28,792 bases of DNA, from IMG/VR virus record IMGVR_UViG_2778261570_000004, positions 1 through 28,792 of that record. One strand, 5' to 3'. A program made the position numbers and the translations under genes. The stretch is from a virus (taxonomy: Duplodnaviria > Heunggongvirae > Uroviricota > Caudoviricetes). The notes beneath the pieces are model-generated. The model ran no database searches. It had not been told where the DNA came from and saw only the letters and a program-made list of their open reading frames with translations. Positions 727 through 28,405 of this stretch are shown in pieces (within the stretch, counting starts at the first letter, position 1; the number at the start of each line of letters is the position of its first letter).

Positions 727-747
727 ATATGTTAGAAAACTAATTTT
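727..747. promoter_or_regulatory. operator-like motif copy 1 (ATATGTTAGAAAACTAATTTT) overlapping promoter-like AT-rich region
   Basis: Member of a motif family recurring at least 9 times in the window; sits about 20 bp upstream of the 757 ORF. Confidence 0.5.
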
Positions 748-1977: not shown

Positions 1978-1996
1978 TATGTTAGAAATCTAATTT
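1977..1996. promoter_or_regulatory. operator-like motif copy 2 (ATATGTTAGAAATCTAATTT)
   Basis: Same motif family, immediately after the stop of the 757..1977 ORF. Confidence 0.45.
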
Positions 1997-3216: not shown

Positions 3217-3292
3217 GATGGTGTAGCTCAGCGGTTAGAGCGGTTGACTGTTAATCAACGGGTCGATGGTTCAAATCCATCCACCATCGCCA
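3217..3292 (+). tRNA. tRNA-Asn (anticodon GTT)
   Basis: Manual cloverleaf: acceptor GATGGTG/CACCATC, D-arm GCTC..GAGC, anticodon loop CTGTTAA, T-arm GATGG-TTCAAAT-CCATC, encoded CCA. Confidence 0.85.
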
Positions 3293-3294
3293 AT

Positions 3295-3370
3295 GCCGGT
3301 TTAGCTCAGTTGGTAGAGCGCCTGCCTTGTAAGCAGGATGTCAGCGGTTCGAGTCCGTTAATCGGCACCA
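3295..3370 (+). tRNA. tRNA-Thr (anticodon TGT)
   Basis: Manual cloverleaf: acceptor GCCGGTT/AATCGGC (one G-U), anticodon stem CCTGC/GCAGG with loop CTTGTAA, T-loop TTCGAGT, encoded CCA. Confidence 0.85.
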
Positions 3371-4727: not shown

Positions 4728-4803
4728 GGCCCTTTAGCTCAGTGGTTAGAGCTGGCGACTCATAATCGCACGGTCACCGGTTCAAGTCCGGTAGGGGCCA
4801 CCA
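4728..4803 (+). tRNA. tRNA with anticodon CAT, ileX-like (Ile2 if lysidine-modified, otherwise Met)
   Basis: Acceptor GGCCCTT/AGGGGCC, anticodon loop CTCATAA, T-arm CCGG-TTCAAGT-CCGG, encoded CCA; strongly resembles E. coli ileX as recalled. Confidence 0.85.
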
Positions 4804-9671: not shown

Positions 9672-10709
9672 TTACCAGAGTTTAGCGGCGTGCTGTGTTT
9701 GGGAGAAAGTGAACCCGTAACGTTCTTCTATGGTTTTACCGTATCTTTTCCGCGCGTCTGTCAGTTTTATGCCTGTCAGGTCATCTCCGGATGTCATCAT
9801 TACGTCTAACAAATCCAGATCCATTTTATTCAGTCTCGCCATCGCTTCGCGTGCTGTCTGTATTTTACGCTCAATGATATGGCGAATAGCCGGATCGGCT
9901 TCCTCAAGCATTTTGGCTGATTTGTTCTTTAAGCTCTCATTGCGGATGTCGATGTTTCGCAAGATGTATGACTTCGCAACATAGCTTGGTTGGTGTTTCT
10001 CCAGATCGCGAACGCGATAGAGACTAAAGTCACCAAGCAGGCCGCAAGGTATCGACTCAACCCCAGAATAAATAGTAATGCTGCGACGTTCGCCGACATT
10101 ATTAACAACGGGCACTGTGGTGTTCGGAAGTTTTGCGAACACTAAGGCTCCGTGTGCGCCTACCCTGAATCGTGACAGAGCATTGCTGCCTTCAATGTTT
10201 GTTGTAAGCACTACATCTGTGTATCCATCTTTGCGCGCCCGGTAAACTTCCCCTTCAGGTTCTGATGCGAAAAAACGGCGCTCTTCTTCAAGTGCACCAA
10301 CAATCTGCGAAAATATCTTGTTTTTCAGGCTTTTCTTTATAATTGCATCATATTTTTTGAGCAGATTTTCGCGCGTAAATGAGCGGGTGGTGGTCGCGCT
10401 TTGCACAACAATATGCGTGCTTTGATTTGTGTCCTCGATAATGAATGGGATCGGAGAATATACAGACTCAACAATGTTAGACGCTTTGCCGTCAGCGTTA
10501 CGGCACAAGTCAACAAAGGCTTTCCATTCTGTGAGGCACTTTTCAGCTTCTTCTAGCACATTCTGATCATGTGTTAGTGCAACATGGCGGAATTCCTCGC
10601 CGGAATAACTGGTATCATGGAAAACAGAGTTTGCGACCACCAGCTCTTTCCACCGTTCAGCGGTTTGCAGGAACCGTTTGTACTCTTTCTCGATCGACTT
10701 CTTACTCAT
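9672..10709 (-). CDS. hypothetical protein (345 aa) at the position occupied by the c1 repressor in P1; candidate master repressor
   Basis: Long ORF convergent with terminase, divergent from recombinase; operator-like motif 15-35 bp upstream of its start; no motif recognised by eye. Confidence 0.55.
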   Translation of the reverse strand: MSKKSIEKEYKRFLQTAERWKELVVANSVFHDTSYSGEEFRHVALTHDQNVLEEAEKCLTEWKAFVDLCRNADGKASNIVESVYSPIPFIIEDTNQSTHIVVQSATTTRSFTRENLLKKYDAIIKKSLKNKIFSQIVGALEEERRFFASEPEGEVYRARKDGYTDVVLTTNIEGSNALSRFRVGAHGALVFAKLPNTTVPVVNNVGERRSITIYSGVESIPCGLLGDFSLYRVRDLEKHQPSYVAKSYILRNIDIRNESLKNKSAKMLEEADPAIRHIIERKIQTAREAMARLNKMDLDLLDVMMTSGDDLTGIKLTDARKRYGKTIEERYGFTFSQTQHAAKLW

Positions 10710-11094: not shown

Positions 11095-12123
11095 ATGAGT
11101 GAATTAATTATCTCTGGCAGCTCCGGTGGTTTTCTGCGCAACATTGGCAAAGAGTACCAGGAGGCCGCAGAAAACTTTATGCGGTTCATGAATGACCAGG
11201 GGGCTTACGCGCCGAATACTTTGCGCGATCTCCGGTTAGTGTTTCACTCCTGGGCGAGATGGTGTCACGCTCGCCAGCTCGCCTGGTTCCCGATCTCACC
11301 AGAGATGGCCCGCGAGTATTTTCTTCAGCTGCATGATGCTGATCTGGCTTCGACCACCATTGATAAGCACTACGCCATGCTTAACATGCTGCTTTCGCAT
11401 TGTGGCCTTCCGCCACTTTCGGATGATAAAAGTGTTTCTCTGGCTATGCGGCGCATCCGGCGTGAAGCGGCAACTGAAAAAGGCGAACGAACAGGCCAGG
11501 CTATACCGCTGCGGTGGGACGATCTGAAACTGCTCGACGTCCTGTTGTCCAGGTCAGAACGGCTGGTGGACCTGCGCAACCGGGCTTTTCTCTTTGTTGC
11601 ATACAATACGCTGATGCGTATGTCGGAAATCTCGCGTATTCGTGTAGGAGATCTGGATCAAACAGGTGACACTGTCACGCTACATATTTCACACACGAAG
11701 ACAATAACGACCGCCGCCGGGATTGATAAGGTGCTTTCCCGTCGCACTACCGCTGTGCTGAATGACTGGCTGGATGTTTCCGGGCTTCGCGAACATCCTG
11801 ACGCAGTGTTGTTCCCGCCGATACACCGTAGCAATAAGGCCAGGATCACGACAACGCCCCTTACTGCACCTGCAATGGAGAAAATATTCAGCGACGCCTG
11901 GGTGTTGCTGAATAAAAGAGATGCTACGCCAAACAAAGGAAGATACCGGACGTGGACCGGGCATAGTGCACGCGTCGGGGCCGCTATTGATATGGCTGAA
12001 AAGCAGGTGTCTATGGTGGAGATCATGCAGGAAGGAACCTGGAAGAAACCGGAAACACTTATGCGGTATCTTCGCCGTGGCGGCGTGTCTGTGGGGGCTA
12101 ATAGCCGCCTGATGGATTCGTAA
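11095..12123 (+). CDS. dre: Cre-family tyrosine recombinase, Dre-like
   Basis: Alignable by eye to P1 Cre (HSWARWC, SVSLAMRRIRRE, RNRAFLFVAYNTLMRMSEISRIRVGDL, WTGHSARVGAAIDMA, LMRYL catalytic Tyr); adjacent rox-like site. Confidence 0.85.
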   Translation: MSELIISGSSGGFLRNIGKEYQEAAENFMRFMNDQGAYAPNTLRDLRLVFHSWARWCHARQLAWFPISPEMAREYFLQLHDADLASTTIDKHYAMLNMLLSHCGLPPLSDDKSVSLAMRRIRREAATEKGERTGQAIPLRWDDLKLLDVLLSRSERLVDLRNRAFLFVAYNTLMRMSEISRIRVGDLDQTGDTVTLHISHTKTITTAAGIDKVLSRRTTAVLNDWLDVSGLREHPDAVLFPPIHRSNKARITTTPLTAPAMEKIFSDAWVLLNKRDATPNKGRYRTWTGHSARVGAAIDMAEKQVSMVEIMQEGTWKKPETLMRYLRRGGVSVGANSRLMDS

Positions 12124-12143
12124 ATTAAAATTCTAACACATCT
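12123..12143. promoter_or_regulatory. operator-like motif copy 5 (reverse orientation)
   Basis: AAATTAAAATTCTAACACATC just after recombinase stop and about 55 bp before the next operon. Confidence 0.4.
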
Positions 12144-16527: not shown

Positions 16528-16917
16528 TTAAATAACCGGACAATCATCAAATTCCCCACTTCGGGCATCATTGATGACATGAGTGATCACACCAAAAACA
16601 GCATTACTGCCCGTGTATCCATCGTCATCTACTGGTAACGCCTCTTTCTTCCCGGTGCTTAAGTCCTCCAGGTGCTGGCGCGGATACTTCCTGTATCTCT
16701 TTATGCGATATTCACCCTCCATAGCGCACACAAGCAGAGAACCATCAACCGGAGTAAGCGAGGAATCAACCACCAGCAAAGCACCCTGCAATATTCCCTC
16801 ACGGTGATGGCTATCAGCTGCCCGCATGAAGTAGGTCGCTGAAGGATGTCTAATTATCTGCTGATCAAGAGAAATTCGGCTTTCAACATAATCCGCCGCA
16901 GGAGAAGGGAAGCCCAT
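16528..16917 (-). CDS. humD: UmuD-like protein (HumD)
   Basis: UmuD-family motifs (FPSPAADY, ATYFMRA); lies between hot and phd-doc as in P1. Confidence 0.75.
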   Translation of the reverse strand: MGFPSPAADYVESRISLDQQIIRHPSATYFMRAADSHHREGILQGALLVVDSSLTPVDGSLLVCAMEGEYRIKRYRKYPRQHLEDLSTGKKEALPVDDDGYTGSNAVFGVITHVINDARSGEFDDCPVI

Positions 16918-16937: not shown

Positions 16938-16953
16938 CTGTTTATTCATACAG
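16938..16953. promoter_or_regulatory. LexA box (CTGT-N8-ACAG)
   Basis: taCTGTTTATTCATACAGta, 20-35 bp upstream of the humD start. Confidence 0.7.
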
Positions 16954-22146: not shown

Positions 22147-22187
22147 ATATGTTAGAAAACTAAAATCAATGTTCTAACGTAATTTTG
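22147..22187. promoter_or_regulatory. operator-like motif pair (ATATGTTAGAAAACTAAAAT plus ATGTTCTAACGTAATTTTG)
   Basis: Two motif copies, GTTAGAA and inverted TTCTAAC, in the intergenic gap inside the leftward operon. Confidence 0.45.
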
Positions 22188-25919: not shown

Positions 25920-26527
25920 GCAGAACTCCTTCTAACCAAAAGAACGCCATCTTCAGAAACAACGTTGCAGGACTTCAGGTAATTCATTGCCTCTTTCGGT
26001 AATGGATTCTTTGGATCGGCGTTTGCCAGGGATTTCGATAACCTCATGATAAATTTGATCATTACCTTCTGGCGGAGCTTGTGCTCATGAGATAAAGAAA
26101 GGTAATAGGAAATGGTATGGGCTAAACGCTCACGAAGCTGTTCTGTGCCGTGATATACAGCAGCGATATCACGCAGTGCATTGACCAGTTCCCGGTAAAT
26201 ATGCAGAGCAACCTGGCATTCAATGTTGGTTGGTGACTCATAAATTACAGTCAGCCCCAGCTTTTCAGCCAGCGCGTGCTCTGCACGAGCACCAATCGAT
26301 TCCTCCCATCGATTGAGCAAGTAGATCGCATCAGCAGAACGCACCATTGCCAGGCAAATATCCATGTATTCACTCTGACAAAGGCCACCAGGTAACACAG
26401 CTGGATTCAGAACGATATGCCCTTCAGCCATCAGCTCACTCGCTTTCGTATTAAACGCCGCACGGTTGTAATCTGGATAACCAGTCATCGGCCCCGCGAT
26501 GTAAATTTTCAAAACACGTTTCACCAT
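25916..26527 (-). CDS. DUF4406 / nucleoside 2-deoxyribosyltransferase-like domain protein
   Basis: KIYIAGPMTG...W.ES.GA..E pattern; start set at the ATG coupled to the upstream micro-ORF (track ORF extends to 26554). Confidence 0.6.
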   Translation of the reverse strand: MVKRVLKIYIAGPMTGYPDYNRAAFNTKASELMAEGHIVLNPAVLPGGLCQSEYMDICLAMVRSADAIYLLNRWEESIGARAEHALAEKLGLTVIYESPTNIECQVALHIYRELVNALRDIAAVYHGTEQLRERLAHTISYYLSLSHEHKLRQKVMIKFIMRLSKSLANADPKNPLPKEAMNYLKSCNVVSEDGVLLVRRSSA

Positions 26528-26682
26528 CAAAATTTCCCCAAAATCGTGACGCAAAACATCAGCACGGCAAAAAGCTCAATACCAAGTTCAAGTAGCGCCA
26601 ACGCCCCGAAAAACAGCACATAGAACAGGCCAATCTCATTCACAGATGGCTGGTGGATCGCACTTAAAGCTATAAGCATCAT
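26527..26682 (-). CDS. 51-aa hydrophobic peptide, first gene of the leftward operon
   Basis: GGAGG 5 nt upstream of ATG; TGATG coupling to next gene; below track cutoff. Confidence 0.35.
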   Translation of the reverse strand: MMLIALSAIHQPSVNEIGLFYVLFFGALALLELGIELFAVLMFCVTILGKF

Positions 26683-26720
26683 GTCCTCCAAACATTTATC
26701 AGTGATGATATTAATGTTTT

Positions 26721-26757
26721 GTGTTAGAAAATCAATTTTGAATATCTAACTATTTTG
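26721..26757. promoter_or_regulatory. operator-like motif pair in divergent promoter region
   Basis: GTGTTAGAAAATCAATTTT plus inverted ATCTAAC; between the leftward operon and the Ref-like gene. Confidence 0.45.
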
Positions 26758-26799
26758 ATCAATCATAGAAAAATCGTTGAAAAGTAAGAGACTGCCATC

Positions 26800-27378
26800 A
26801 TGCAGAAACAGAGTTATTGGGAGAAACAGAGACAAAAAGCCATGCAAAAATTGGCTGACCCGGCCTGGCGAGAGGAACAAAGGGCAAAGCGCCTTCAACA
26901 AGCTCAACGCCAGCAGCAGCGAGCGAGAGAAAAGGCCGCATCGCCTGAATATCGGCAAAAGAAAAATGAAAAAGCAAAGCAATATGAACAGCGGAGAAAA
27001 GATAAAGCTGTATCCGCTCCGCCCAAAAAAACACGCACGTCACGCGGCCTGAAAGGCAGATCACTCACAGCCGATGAACGCCGGATACAGACCGCTATCG
27101 GTACTCTCCCCTGCATTGCCTGCCATATTCACGGGCAACATAGCCCAGTGGTATCCCTGCACCATATCTTCGGGAGAACGGCAGAGAACGCGCATAAATA
27201 TGTCCTCCCTTTGTGTAAATGGCACCACCAGTACGCAGCGCCAGCCGAGGTCCGAGAACAATATCCCTGGCTGGTCCCTGTTCATGCTGACGGAAAAATA
27301 GGCGGAAAAGCAGATTTCATGCGGCACAATGCCGATGAAATGACGTTGTATCAGATGGCGATTGAATTGATAAATTAG
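26800..27378 (+). CDS. ref: Ref-like protein (basic disordered N-terminus plus Cys/His-rich HNH-like C-terminal domain)
   Basis: N-terminal 85 aa rich in K/R/Q; C-terminal CIACHIHGQH...HHIFGR...CKWHHQ; operator-like motifs on both sides. Confidence 0.5.
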   Translation: MQKQSYWEKQRQKAMQKLADPAWREEQRAKRLQQAQRQQQRAREKAASPEYRQKKNEKAKQYEQRRKDKAVSAPPKKTRTSRGLKGRSLTADERRIQTAIGTLPCIACHIHGQHSPVVSLHHIFGRTAENAHKYVLPLCKWHHQYAAPAEVREQYPWLVPVHADGKIGGKADFMRHNADEMTLYQMAIELIN

Positions 27379-27393
27379 TTTTCTAACATTTTA
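27373..27393. promoter_or_regulatory. operator-like motif copy (reverse orientation)
   Basis: AAATTAGTTTTCTAACATTTT overlapping the stop of the Ref-like gene. Confidence 0.4.
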
Positions 27394-27709
27394 AGTTGAA
27401 TTGTAAATTTCTCCGATGTACATTCACTACCGATTGGCACACCGGTCAACTTTTTGAGACAAACTGTTTAGTTTTTCGTATTATTGCCGCCGCTATACCT
27501 ATGGCGGTGCAATATAGGTGGCTGAAAAGCCCCCGTTGACTCACGGTGTTCCAGCCTTTATTGCGCCGCCACCAGACCGTGGAACAGTCGATGGCGGCTC
27601 CGAAAGCAAGGAGTCACTACACTATGAACAGCTACTGTCTTTTCCCATCACTCGTTGTCCGCCACTCACGCGATAATCTGCATTCTTTACTCGCGCTGGG
27701 GGTGTCAAA

Positions 27710-27877: not shown

Positions 27878-27982
27878 AATACTGACTGTTGCGCCATGGC
27901 ATTATCGTGGGGTATATTTCTACGGCACCTTAGAAAAACGGGTGCCGGGATTGGAACCCCGGATAATGTCAAAGGCGACACA

Positions 27983-28004
27983 GACGCCGAAAGCGTCTTT
28001 TTTT
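27983..28004 (+). terminator. rho-independent terminator (GACGC-cgaaa-GCGTC plus T7)
   Basis: Perfect 5-bp stem and run of seven T. Confidence 0.6.
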
Positions 28005-28189
28005 GTGTCATGCCATCGCACAGCCATACGTAGCGTTTAGCTCAGAGATCAATGGTAGTGCTGGCTGGGCTGCCGAAAGGCAGGCCGGTTCCCTTTGACG
28101 CCGGTAGTTCCAACCCAGTCAGTGCTACCGCCATTGAGATTGGAACCTCACGCGGTAGCTCCTTAACTTAGTCAAAGGAGGCTGCCAAT

Positions 28190-28405
28190 ATGGCTACTAT
28201 CCCTACCCCAACTCATTCTGAATTTATCTGGCGTTTCTATTCCTGCCAAAAACACCTGTATATCTGCGTCATGGCTGCTACCGAAGCAGAAGCTCGTTCA
28301 TACCTTCCTGAAGAACCCTGCATTTTTGCCGCACGCTTCACTCTTGATGCGATGGAGATCCTAAATTACTGGAATCTGCCAATGAACTGCGTGGAGGTGC
28401 ACTGA
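28190..28405 (+). CDS. hypothetical 71-aa protein at an icd-like position
   Basis: SD AAGGAGG 7 nt upstream of ATG; TGATG coupling to the downstream Rha-family gene. Confidence 0.45.
   Translation: MATIPTPTHSEFIWRFYSCQKHLYICVMAATEAEARSYLPEEPCIFAARFTLDAMEILNYWNLPMNCVEVH

What the first reader, a model, noticed from the sequence alone, without database searches (positions are those of the whole stretch)
26721..27393. Ref-like nuclease gene framed by operator motifs
The 192-aa protein has a basic, low-complexity N-terminal half and a Cys/His-rich C-terminal half, like the P1 Ref RecA-dependent nuclease as I recall it. Operator-like motifs lie in its promoter and across its stop codon, so it is probably repressed in the prophage state.
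Basis: partly seen in the sequence, partly recalled or inferred. Interest (0 to 1): 0.35.

Follow-up and report, generated by a model that had tools for sequence, protein, structure and literature searches.

The report
Ref nuclease gene in D6-like prophage
This is an ordinary, already annotated copy of the phage gene ref (a DNA-cutting enzyme that acts only on RecA-coated DNA) in a D6-like plasmid prophage of E. coli, with a binding site for the phage's master repressor on each side, as in phage P1.

Summary
ORF 26800..27378 (+) encodes a 192-aa protein that matches Pfam RecA_dep_nuc (E 7e-35) and the solved P1 Ref structure 3PLW (E 9e-51). Overall identity to P1 Ref is 53%, and 66% in the nuclease core. 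All tested metal-site and active-site Cys/His are conserved. The N-terminal 82 residues are basic and contain no Cys or His.

The region is 98.3% identical to phage D6, where the gene is annotated as orf87, 'RecA-dependent endonuclease, similar to P1 ref'.

The two flanking motifs are real. TGTTAGAAAAYYAATTT occurs 10 times in the window against 0.46 expected. It sits where P1 has C1 operators (c1, lpa, ref). In the full D6 genome it also sits at repL and hrdC-dmt. It is conserved as a footprint in two diverged relatives. It is the operator of a D6-type C1 repressor that is only 20% identical to P1 C1.

It lies 8 bp upstream of a conserved promoter that reads into a C4-like antisense RNA and the icd/ant antirepressor region, the same layout as P1 Oc4-P51-c4.

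Novelty is low and interest is low.

The parts
26800..27378 (+). ref gene (192 aa plus TAG stop), Ref-family RecA-dependent nuclease
   Evidence: ORF list. Pfam PF16786 at E 7e-35. PDB 3PLW at E 9e-51. 98% identical to D6 orf87 'RecA-dependent endonuclease'.
26800..27045 (+). Codons 1-82: basic, Q/A-rich N-terminal segment, counterpart of the disordered DNA-binding N-terminus of P1 Ref
   Evidence: 26 K+R, 15 Q and no Cys or His in 82 aa. Only 18/59 aligned residues are identical to P1, but the KLADPxWRE block is conserved. The role of the P1 N-terminus is taken from PMC4330346.
27046..27375 (+). Codons 83-192: His-Me finger (HNH) nuclease core
   Evidence: Pfam match covers residues 90-191. 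74/112 identical to P1. P1 C96, C99, C130, H133, H134 and H153 correspond to window C105, C108, C139, H142, H143 and H162, all conserved.
26722..26738 (+). Upstream operator (D6-type C1 site) in the ref / orf88 divergent control region
   Evidence: Exact match to the motif, 24.7 bits. The block 26720-26751 is 29/32 conserved against E. fergusonii pEF-4, versus 9/30 in the adjacent spacer.
26735..26751 (-). Degenerate second, inverted half-site. In relatives this makes the upstream operator bivalent (offset 13 nt)
   Evidence: In CP029365 and pEF-4 the minus-strand copy scores 20.7 and 18.8 bits at offset 13. The window pair 22150/22163 has the same geometry. In the window and D6 this half scores below 10 bits.
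26738..26766 (+). Candidate ref promoter TTGAAT-17-AATCAT (8/12 match to consensus). Its -35 lies inside the operator block
   Evidence: Relaxed hexamer scan. The same position is kept in CP029365 (TTGATT-17-AACCAT) and pEF-4 (TTGAAT-17-AATCAT). It is below the threshold of the standard scan. Inferred only.
26735..26762 (-). Candidate leftward promoter TTGATC-16-CAAAAT for the orf88 / DUF4406 operon. Its -10 lies inside the operator
   Evidence: Present at the same position in all three lineages at 8/12. It explains the conserved TTGATCAATCATAG block. Inferred only.
26708..26735 (-). Second candidate leftward promoter TTGATT-16-TAATAT. Its -35 lies inside the operator
   Evidence: Counterparts are TTGATT-17-GATACT in CP029365 and TTGAAT-16-TAGTCT in pEF-4. 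Inferred only.
27372..27388 (-). Operator overlapping the ref stop codon
   Evidence: Exact consensus, 27.6 bits. Kept in CP029365 (26.1 bits) and pEF-4 (15.9 bits, 5' half TGTTAGAAA intact). P1 has an annotated C1 operator across its own ref stop codon.
27396..27424 (+). Promoter-like site TTGAAT-17-TACATT, 8 bp downstream of the stop-codon operator
   Evidence: In pEF-4 the hexamers are kept (TTGATC-17-TAAATT) while the spacer is only 8/17 identical. Inferred only.
27456..27484 (+). Second promoter-like site GAGACA-17-TATTAT
   Evidence: The only site passing the standard scan, 9/12. Conserved as GAGACA-17-TATCAT in pEF-4.
27497..27576 (+). Divergent C4-type antisense RNA, the first element transcribed downstream of the stop-codon operator
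   Evidence: Rfam RF01695 at 40.2 bits (below the gathering score of 45), E 2e-6 for the 381-nt search. Folding z-score -3.2. The same element scores 39.5 bits in pEF-4, where it lies directly before an Icd-like gene.
9672..10709 (-). c1 gene: D6-type prophage repressor, the presumed trans-acting binder of the operators
   Evidence: Matches D6 orf1 'prophage repressor' / AY753669 c1. 20% identical to P1 C1, pairwise E 5e-8. NCBIfam phage_rep_C1 at 23 bits, far below the cutoff of 500. An operator lies 12-28 nt upstream of its ATG.

Best explanation
The window is part of a D6-like P1-family plasmid prophage.

The gene. ORF 26800..27378 is its ref gene. The product has a basic N-terminal segment of about 82 aa that is probably disordered. 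In P1 Ref this part binds DNA and tethers the enzyme to the RecA filament. The C-terminal 110 aa form a zinc-containing His-Me (HNH) nuclease core. The enzyme cuts DNA only where RecA is bound (single-stranded DNA filaments, D-loops). This stimulates recombination and prolongs SOS during lytic growth.

Upstream control. In the prophage the D6-type C1 repressor (gene 9672..10709) binds asymmetric 17-bp operators, consensus TGTTAGAAAAYTAATTT. The operator block at 26722-26751 overlaps the -35 of the candidate ref promoter. It also overlaps the -10 or -35 of the candidate promoters of the divergent orf88 operon. Both units would therefore be silent until C1 is inactivated.

Downstream control. 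The second operator (27372-27388, across the ref stop codon) is the gate of the next unit: two tandem promoters, then a C4-like antisense RNA, small ORFs, an isrK-like RNA, C4, icd and ant. This is the counterpart of P1 Oc4-P51a/b-c4-icd-ant.

Shown here: homology, residue conservation, motif statistics, positional correspondence with annotated P1 operators, and conservation in diverged relatives.

Inferred: C1 binding, which promoters are used, RecA dependence, and the timing of expression.
For: Ref identity:
- establish homology to P1 Ref.
- The two residues mutated in the nuclease-dead P1 variant (H134, H153; PMC4713147) and C96, C99, C130, H133 are all conserved.
- D6 annotates the gene as ref, and RefSeq plasmid records as 'Ref family' nuclease.

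Operator identity:
- 10 copies in the window against 0.46 expected.
- 13 sites at 19 bits or more in the D6 genome. These include sites outside the region used to build the matrix: upstream of repL, ahead of the second icd/antirepressor module, in the capsid/orf52 intergenic region, and upstream of the hrdC-dmt operon.
- The positions match annotated P1 operators Oc1, Olpa, OrepL, Oref, Omat and Oc4.
- pEF-4, whose C1 is 72% identical, keeps the motif in the same gene neighbourhoods.
- The P1 consensus ATTGCTCTAATAAATTT (PMC8546580) has no match in the window. This fits a C1 only 20% identical to that of P1.
- Footprint: 29/32 conserved in the operator block against 9/30 in the flanking spacer.

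Target of the downstream operator:
- Conserved hexamers with a diverged spacer.
- A C4-like RNA follows in the window and in pEF-4.
- D6's other immI module has the same order: operator, a1b1 leader, C4, icd.
- P1 has the same layout.

P1 ref is induced on C1 inactivation (PMC4713147).
Against: - No binding, transcription or nuclease data exist for the D6-type proteins.
- The candidate ref promoter matches only 8/12 of the consensus and was not reported by the standard scan.
- The stop-codon operator does not overlap the -35 of the downstream promoter. It ends 8 bp before it, so the repression mechanism there is unclear.
- The C4-like RNA is below Rfam's gathering score (40.2 against 45).
- In the window and D6, the short ORF that follows this RNA has no Icd motif.
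- The N-terminal half is only about 31% identical to P1 Ref.
Confidence: 0.85

Rival explanations
1. The stop-codon operator does take part in ref repression. The repressor bound at the two convergent sites 650 bp apart bridges them into a loop enclosing ref, or the downstream site blocks read-through or antisense transcription. The pair would then act as one unit.
For: - An operator on each side of ref is kept in P1, D6, CP029365 and pEF-4, even though the operator sequence and the neighbouring genes have changed.
- The downstream site does not overlap a -35 hexamer.
- C1-mediated looping between P1 operators has been reported. This rests on my own recollection of Heinzel et al. 1994 and was not checked here.
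Against: - The P1 record assigns the equivalent site to the downstream gene.
- The same order (operator, promoter, C4) is found at D6's other immI module, where no ref gene is present.
- Operators also abut the stop codons of pmgS and dre, which suggests simple tight packing ahead of the next unit.
Confidence: 0.2
2. The 17-nt motif is bound by a regulator other than the C1 homologue (for example a late activator or a host protein), or it is a non-regulatory repeat.
For: - No binding data exist.
- The motif is AT-rich.
- The D6-type C1 is only 20% identical to P1 C1.
Against: - The motif lies directly upstream of c1 itself and of lpa, repL, hrdC-dmt and the immI modules. This is the set of C1-controlled units in P1.
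- Like the P1 operator, it is asymmetric, 17 nt long, and occurs singly or as overlapping inverted pairs.
- It is retained together with a D6-type c1 gene in pEF-4.
- It does not resemble the P1 late-promoter -22 box seen at LPmat.
Confidence: 0.07
3. The protein is a generic HNH or homing endonuclease, or a Ref relative that has lost RecA dependence.
For: RecA dependence cannot be read from sequence. The N-terminal half has diverged (18/59 identical).
Against: - The match is to the Ref-specific family, and no general HNH Pfam family scored at E below 1.
- Similarity extends over residues 28-192, including the N-terminal KLADPxWRE block.
- Domain sizes, charge pattern and genomic role are the same as in P1.
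Confidence: 0.05

Closest known systems
Phage P1 Ref (recombination enhancement function; PDB 3PLW; Pfam PF16786)
   Same: - Two-part build: a basic N-terminal segment free of Cys and His, and a 110-aa His-Me/HNH core.
- 66% identity in the core.
- P1 H134, H153, C96, C99, C130 and H133 are all conserved.
- A repressor operator lies upstream and another lies across the stop codon.
   Different: - 53% identity overall, and the N-terminus is only about 31% identical and 6 aa longer.
- It lacks P1 Cys11, the residue behind P1 Ref dimerisation (PMC4330346).
- P1 H136 is Tyr here.
- The P1 leader has a hairpin followed by a T run just before the ATG. No such hairpin was seen in the leader here (read by eye, not folded).
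- The neighbours differ. In P1 the order is c8-ref-mat. Here a divergent early operon lies on the left and an immI-like unit on the right.
Phage D6 orf87 (MF356679 / NC_050154) and 'Ref family recombination enhancement nuclease' genes of D6-like plasmids
   Same: - 98.3% DNA identity over 1.2 kb and 188/192 aa identical.
- Same neighbours and the same two operators.
- 118 plasmid records cover at least 80% of the 1.2-kb query.
   Different: - Four amino-acid differences.
- The window's c1 product is only 89% identical to D6 C1.
- Other parts of the window are mosaic with P1/RCS47-like segments.
- Neither D6 record lists operator features.
P1 C1 repressor and its dispersed asymmetric 17-bp operators (Oref, Omat, Olpa, Oc1, OrepL, Oc4)
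   Same: - Asymmetric 17-mers, single or as overlapping inverted pairs, dispersed over the genome.
- They stand at the same genes, including autoregulation of c1 (PMC8546580).
   Different: - The consensus is TGTTAGAAAAYTAATTT, not ATTGCTCTAATAAATTT, and no P1-type site is present.
- The repressor is 345 aa against 283 aa and 20% identical.
- The offset within bivalent pairs is 13 nt here and 11 nt in P1 Oc1ab.
P1 immI control region (Oc4/Op51, P51a/P51b, c4 RNA, icd, ant)
   Same: The order is the same: operator, two tandem promoters, a C4-type RNA, then icd/ant further downstream.
   Different: - The operator lies inside the end of ref and stops 8 bp before the -35. In P1 it overlaps the -35 by 3 nt.
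- The first C4-like RNA is divergent (40 bits). It is followed by short ORFs, an isrK-like RNA and a second, canonical C4 before icd.

Membership tests
Ref family RecA-dependent nucleases (Pfam PF16786, P1 Ref) | Sequence match to the Ref-specific nuclease core above the curated threshold | tested here: met
   PF16786 at 119.7 bits against a cutoff of 26.9, residues 90-191 on profile positions 2-102 of 103. 3PLW at E 9e-51.
Ref family RecA-dependent nucleases (Pfam PF16786, P1 Ref) | Metal-binding and catalytic His and Cys of the His-Me finger. P1 H153 coordinates the active-site Zn. The H134/H153 double mutant is used as nuclease-dead. | tested here: met
   P1 H134 and H153 correspond to window H143 and H162. 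P1 C96, C99, C130 and H133 correspond to C105, C108, C139 and H142. All are identical, also in D6, CP029365 and pEF-4. Residue roles come from PMC3973344 and PMC4713147.
Ref family RecA-dependent nucleases (Pfam PF16786, P1 Ref) | Positively charged, intrinsically disordered N-terminal segment of about 76 aa needed for DNA binding | tested here: inconclusive
   The composition fits: 26 K+R and 9 D+E in 82 aa, against 25 and 9 in 76 aa for P1 (PMC4330346). Disorder and DNA binding were not tested.
Ref family RecA-dependent nucleases (Pfam PF16786, P1 Ref) | Nuclease activity that requires a RecA filament on the DNA | not testable with these tools
   This needs a biochemical assay.
P1-type C1 repressor/operator regulon | Asymmetric 17-bp site present in many dispersed copies, far above chance | tested here: met
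   10 copies in 28.8 kb against 0.46 expected. 13 sites at 19 bits or more in D6. The site is not palindromic.
P1-type C1 repressor/operator regulon | Sites located at c1 itself and at the early/lytic units (lpa, repL, dmt operon, immI, ref) | tested here: met
   Window sites lie upstream of c1 and lpa and on both sides of ref. D6 sites lie upstream of repL and hrdC-dmt and ahead of the second immI module. The P1 annotations are used for comparison.
P1-type C1 repressor/operator regulon | A C1-family repressor encoded in the same element | tested here: met
   The homology is distant: 20% identity, pairwise E 5e-8, and NCBIfam phage_rep_C1 at E 3.8e-5 but 23 bits against a cutoff of 500. It occupies the same genomic position (pacB-c1-recombinase) as in P1.
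P1-type C1 repressor/operator regulon | Match to the P1 operator consensus ATTGCTCTAATAAATTT (same immunity specificity) | tested here: not met
   No match with up to 3 mismatches. The system works like P1's but has a different specificity.
P1-type C1 repressor/operator regulon | Physical binding of the repressor to the sites and repression of the adjacent promoters | not testable with these tools
   This needs footprinting and reporter assays.

The most novel reading that the evidence does not exclude
The two convergent operators that bracket ref, kept in P1 and in three D6-type lineages even though both operator sequence and neighbouring genes have changed, may be a functional pair. A repressor-held loop of about 650 bp would enclose ref. 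One node would then silence three units together: the divergent early operon, ref, and the antirepressor (immI-like) operon. Ref expression would be tied to the commitment step of induction. A weaker form of the idea is that the D6-type operator consensus and regulon map given here have not been described before.
Probability: 0.15. Interest if true: 0.3.

Novelty: already known. Interest (0 to 1): 0.12.

Why it matters
It matters little beyond correct annotation. The gene is a clear Ref orthologue that public records already name, and its control layout copies that of P1.

Two points are modestly useful:
- A working operator consensus for the D6-type C1 repressor, TGTTAGAAAAYTAATTT. It occurs singly or as inverted pairs offset by 13 nt, and gives a map of the probable C1 regulon. 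Neither D6 record annotates these sites.
- The operator inside the end of ref most likely gates the downstream C4-like RNA / icd / ant unit.

Ref enzymes are of some applied interest because they make targeted breaks guided by RecA and an oligonucleotide. A variant 53% identical to P1 Ref, with a different N-terminus, could be compared with P1 and phiW39 Ref.

Tried and rejected
- P1 operator consensus in the window: no match at up to 3 mismatches. The motifs are not P1-type operators.
- Standard promoter scan: no promoter upstream of ref and only one downstream. The other promoter candidates rest on a relaxed scan plus conservation and are marked as inferred.
- NCBIfam: no Ref model matched at E 0.01 or better.
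- General Pfam HNH families: none hit at E below 1, only the Ref-specific family. Assignment to the HNH/His-Me superfamily rests on the 3PLW structure literature (PMC5714182).
- Rfam at gathering threshold: no C4 found next to ref in CP029365 or pEF-4. For pEF-4 only, a more permissive search of the short region gave a sub-threshold hit. The window gave a similar sub-threshold hit.
- Papers not held in the library: the D6 genome paper, the P1 genome paper, Windle et al. 1988, Sauer and McDermott 2004, and Gruenig et al. 2011. I could not check whether the D6 operators have been published, nor read the exact Zn ligands.
- Full-text search for the motif returned only unrelated papers. A search for D6-like plus C1 operator found nothing relevant.
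- Considered and rejected: a generic homing HNH endonuclease, a late-promoter element, and chance AT-rich similarity (see the rival explanations).
- Not run, because the answer did not depend on them: the large protein homology searches and structure prediction.

Full report
**What is there**

The window holds an ORF at 26800..27378 on the + strand, starting with ATG and encoding 192 aa. Residues 1-82 have 26 Lys+Arg, 15 Gln, 11 Ala and no Cys or His. Residues 83-192 have 3 Cys and 10 His.

A 17-nt inverted pair frames the gene. TGTTAGAAAATCAATTT lies at 26722-26738 (+), 62 nt before the ATG. TGTTAGAAAACTAATTT lies at 27372-27388 (-), covering the TAG stop at 27376-27378.

**Is the protein Ref?**

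Yes.
- Pfam gives a single significant family, PF16786 RecA_dep_nuc: E 7.4e-35, 119.7 bits against a cutoff of 26.9, residues 90-191.
- The only solved structure matched is 3PLW, P1 'Recombination enhancement function protein', at E 9.1e-51 over residues 28-192.
- Alignment with the Ref protein of the annotated P1 record gives 53% identity overall: 74/112 in the C-terminal core and 18/59 in the N-terminal part.
- P1 His153 coordinates the active-site zinc, and its loss abolishes cleavage of the displaced strand (PMC3973344). H134/H153A is the nuclease-dead variant used in vivo (PMC4713147). Both are conserved, as H143 and H162.
- P1 C96, C99, C130, H133, H112 and H113 are also conserved.
- The P1 N-terminal 76 residues are disordered, carry 25 positive charges and are needed for DNA binding (PMC4330346). 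The segment here has 26 positive charges in 82 residues.
- Ref is classed in the His-Me finger (HNH) superfamily (PMC5714182).

**Where the window comes from**

The 1.2 kb around the gene is 98.3% identical to Escherichia phage D6. There the gene is orf87, 'RecA-dependent endonuclease; similar to P1 gene ref' in GenBank and 'Ref-like RecA filament endonuclease' in RefSeq. In the plasmid collection, 118 records cover at least 80% of this query, and the listed rows are annotated 'Ref family recombination enhancement nuclease'.

The rest of the window carries the D6-type pacA, pacB, c1 and dre (Cre-like) genes, tRNAs and P1/RCS47-like segments. So this is a D6-like plasmid prophage, and the gene is already annotated.

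**Are the motifs operators?**

The pattern TGTTAGAAAAYYAATTT with up to 3 mismatches occurs 10 times in the window, against 0.46 expected. A weight matrix built from these sites separates them cleanly. All score at least 19.6 bits, nothing else reaches 10 bits, and no shuffle reaches 19 bits. The site is asymmetric.

Its positions are informative:
- 12-28 nt upstream of c1.
- 79-95 nt upstream of lpa.
- On both sides of pmgS.
- Across the stop codon of dre.
- As an overlapping inverted pair (offset 13) upstream of the pdcB homologue.
- On both sides of ref.

The richly annotated P1 record has C1 operators at the corresponding places. These are Oc1 upstream of c1 and Olpa 70-86 nt upstream of lpa. 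Oref lies between the -35 and -10 of P2ref. 'Omat' spans 2628-2645, across the ref stop codon at 2635-2637.

Scanning the complete D6 genome adds sites outside the region from which the matrix was built. They lie upstream of repL (P1: OrepL) and as a pair upstream of the hrdC-methylase operon. My recollection is that P1 Op68 controls dmt; this was not checked. Further sites lie in the capsid/orf52 intergenic region and ahead of D6's other icd/antirepressor module.

The E. fergusonii plasmid pEF-4 is a diverged relative: its Ref and its C1 are each 72% identical to the window's. It keeps the motif in the same neighbourhoods.

The upstream block around ref is a clear footprint. Positions 26720-26751 are 29/32 identical between the window and pEF-4, while the adjacent spacer is 9/30 and the ref leader 16/32.

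The P1 operator consensus ATTGCTCTAATAAATTT (PMC8546580) has no match in the window. The window's C1 is 345 aa and only 20% identical to P1 C1. It scores 23 bits against NCBIfam's cutoff of 500. The system therefore works like P1's C1 regulon but has a different specificity.

**What each operator probably controls**

*Upstream of ref.* In CP029365 and pEF-4 the site is bivalent, with a + copy and a - copy offset by 13 nt. In the window and D6 the - copy (26735-26751) has decayed.

The standard promoter scan finds nothing here. A relaxed scan finds three candidates that keep their position in all three lineages:
- Rightward TTGAAT-17-AATCAT (26738-26766), toward ref.
- Leftward TTGATC-16-CAAAAT (26762 down to 26735).
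- Leftward TTGATT-16-TAATAT (26735 down to 26708), toward orf88 and the DUF4406 gene.

Every candidate overlaps the operator block. The conserved TTGATCAATCATAG block is explained by the overlapping -10 of the rightward candidate and -35 of the first leftward candidate. I infer that one repressor node shuts off both ref and the divergent early operon.

*Across the stop codon.* The site ends 8 bp before TTGAAT-17-TACATT (27396-27424). In pEF-4 the hexamers are kept (TTGATC-17-TAAATT) while the spacer is only 8/17 identical.

A second promoter-like site, GAGACA-17-TATTAT (27456-27484), is the only one passing the standard scan and is also conserved.

A divergent C4-type RNA follows at 27497-27576. 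It scores 40.2 bits in Rfam, below the gathering score of 45, with E 2e-6 in the short search and a fold z-score of -3.2. After it come two short ORFs, an isrK-like RNA (27925-28003), a canonical C4 RNA (28048-28135, 77 bits), icd (28190-28405) and, as in D6, the antirepressor gene.

In pEF-4 the same C4-like element (39.5 bits) lies directly between ref and an Icd-like gene. D6's other immI module shows the same order: operator, a1b1 leader, C4, icd. P1 has Oc4, P51a, P51b, c4, icd, ant.

The stop-codon operator is therefore best read as the gate of the downstream immI-like unit. This parallels the P1 record, which assigns its stop-codon operator to the downstream gene mat.

**Mechanism, with status of each step**

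Shown:
- The gene is a Ref orthologue with an intact metal and active site.
- The flanking motifs belong to a dispersed, conserved operator family that parallels the P1 C1 regulon.

Taken from P1 literature:
- ref is a C1-repressed lytic-cycle gene.
- Ref cuts RecA-bound DNA and thereby enhances recombination and SOS (PMC4713147, PMC3973344, PMC4330346).

Inferred for this element:
- The D6-type C1 binds these sites.
- ref and the orf88 operon are silent in the prophage and derepressed on induction.
- The second operator controls the C4-like/icd/ant unit.

**Differences from P1**
- The N-terminus is diverged and lacks P1 Cys11.
- P1 H136 is Tyr here.
- The P1 leader has a hairpin plus T run. 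I saw none in the ref leader here, by eye only.
- The neighbours differ: a divergent early operon on the left, and an immI-like unit rather than mat on the right.
- By sequence, the P1 stop-codon operator matches the P1 consensus best on the + strand (13/17 at 2628-2644), although the record lists it on the complement. In the D6 type the two ref-flanking sites are convergent.

**Verdict**

The gene is already annotated in D6 and in many plasmid records, and the control layout mirrors a textbook P1 arrangement. Novelty is low.

The only possibly unreported items are the D6-type operator consensus and regulon map, and the tandem C4-type modules. I could not check the D6 genome paper because it is not held in the library.

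Noticed in passing
window 27497-27576, 27925-28003, 28048-28135, 28190-28405: Two C4-type antisense RNA modules lie in tandem downstream of ref. The first is a divergent C4-like RNA (40 bits) followed by a short ORF with a strong AAGGAG ribosome-binding site but no Icd motif. Then come an isrK-like RNA and a canonical C4 (77 bits) before icd. In pEF-4 the divergent C4-like RNA directly precedes a real Icd-like gene.
   Followed up: partly
window 16938-16953: A LexA-box-like sequence, CTGTTTATTCATACAG, lies about 20 nt upstream of the minus-strand ORF 16528..16917. This ORF was not identified. It may be the humD/umuD-like gene, and P1 has a LexA site before humD.
   Followed up: no
window 1980-1996, 12122-12138, 27372-27388: Operators abut or overlap the stop codon of the preceding gene three times: pmgS, dre and ref. 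The same is seen in D6 and pEF-4. This suggests operators are packed at the very start of the next unit.
   Followed up: partly
window 22150-22179; D6 record 64116-64145; L007 1725-1754; L008 1723-1752: Bivalent operators are two inverted 17-mers overlapping with a fixed 13-nt offset. The P1 bivalent operator Oc1ab has an 11-nt offset. The ref-upstream pair is intact in CP029365 and pEF-4 but half-decayed in the window and D6.
   Followed up: partly
window 9672-10709 versus 26500-27700: The window's C1 repressor is only 89% identical to D6 C1, while the ref region is 98.3% identical in DNA. Positions 15.9-22.8 kb match P1/RCS47-type phages better than D6. The element is a mosaic.
   Followed up: no
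L004 (P1 AF234172) 2628-2645: The P1 operator across the ref stop codon is annotated on the complement strand. Its best match to the published consensus is on the + strand (CATGCACTAATAAATAT, 13/17). This is possibly an annotation quirk.
   Followed up: no
window 730-746 and 757: An exact-consensus operator ends only 10 nt before the pmgS start codon. That is too close for a conventional promoter between them, so its target is unclear.
   Followed up: no
window 3217-3289, 3295-3367, 4728-4800: Three tRNA genes lie here. Two correspond to the adjacent tRNA-Asn/tRNA-Thr pair of D6. The third lies 1.3 kb away, like D6's tRNA-Ser, though that one is annotated as 87 nt.
   Followed up: no
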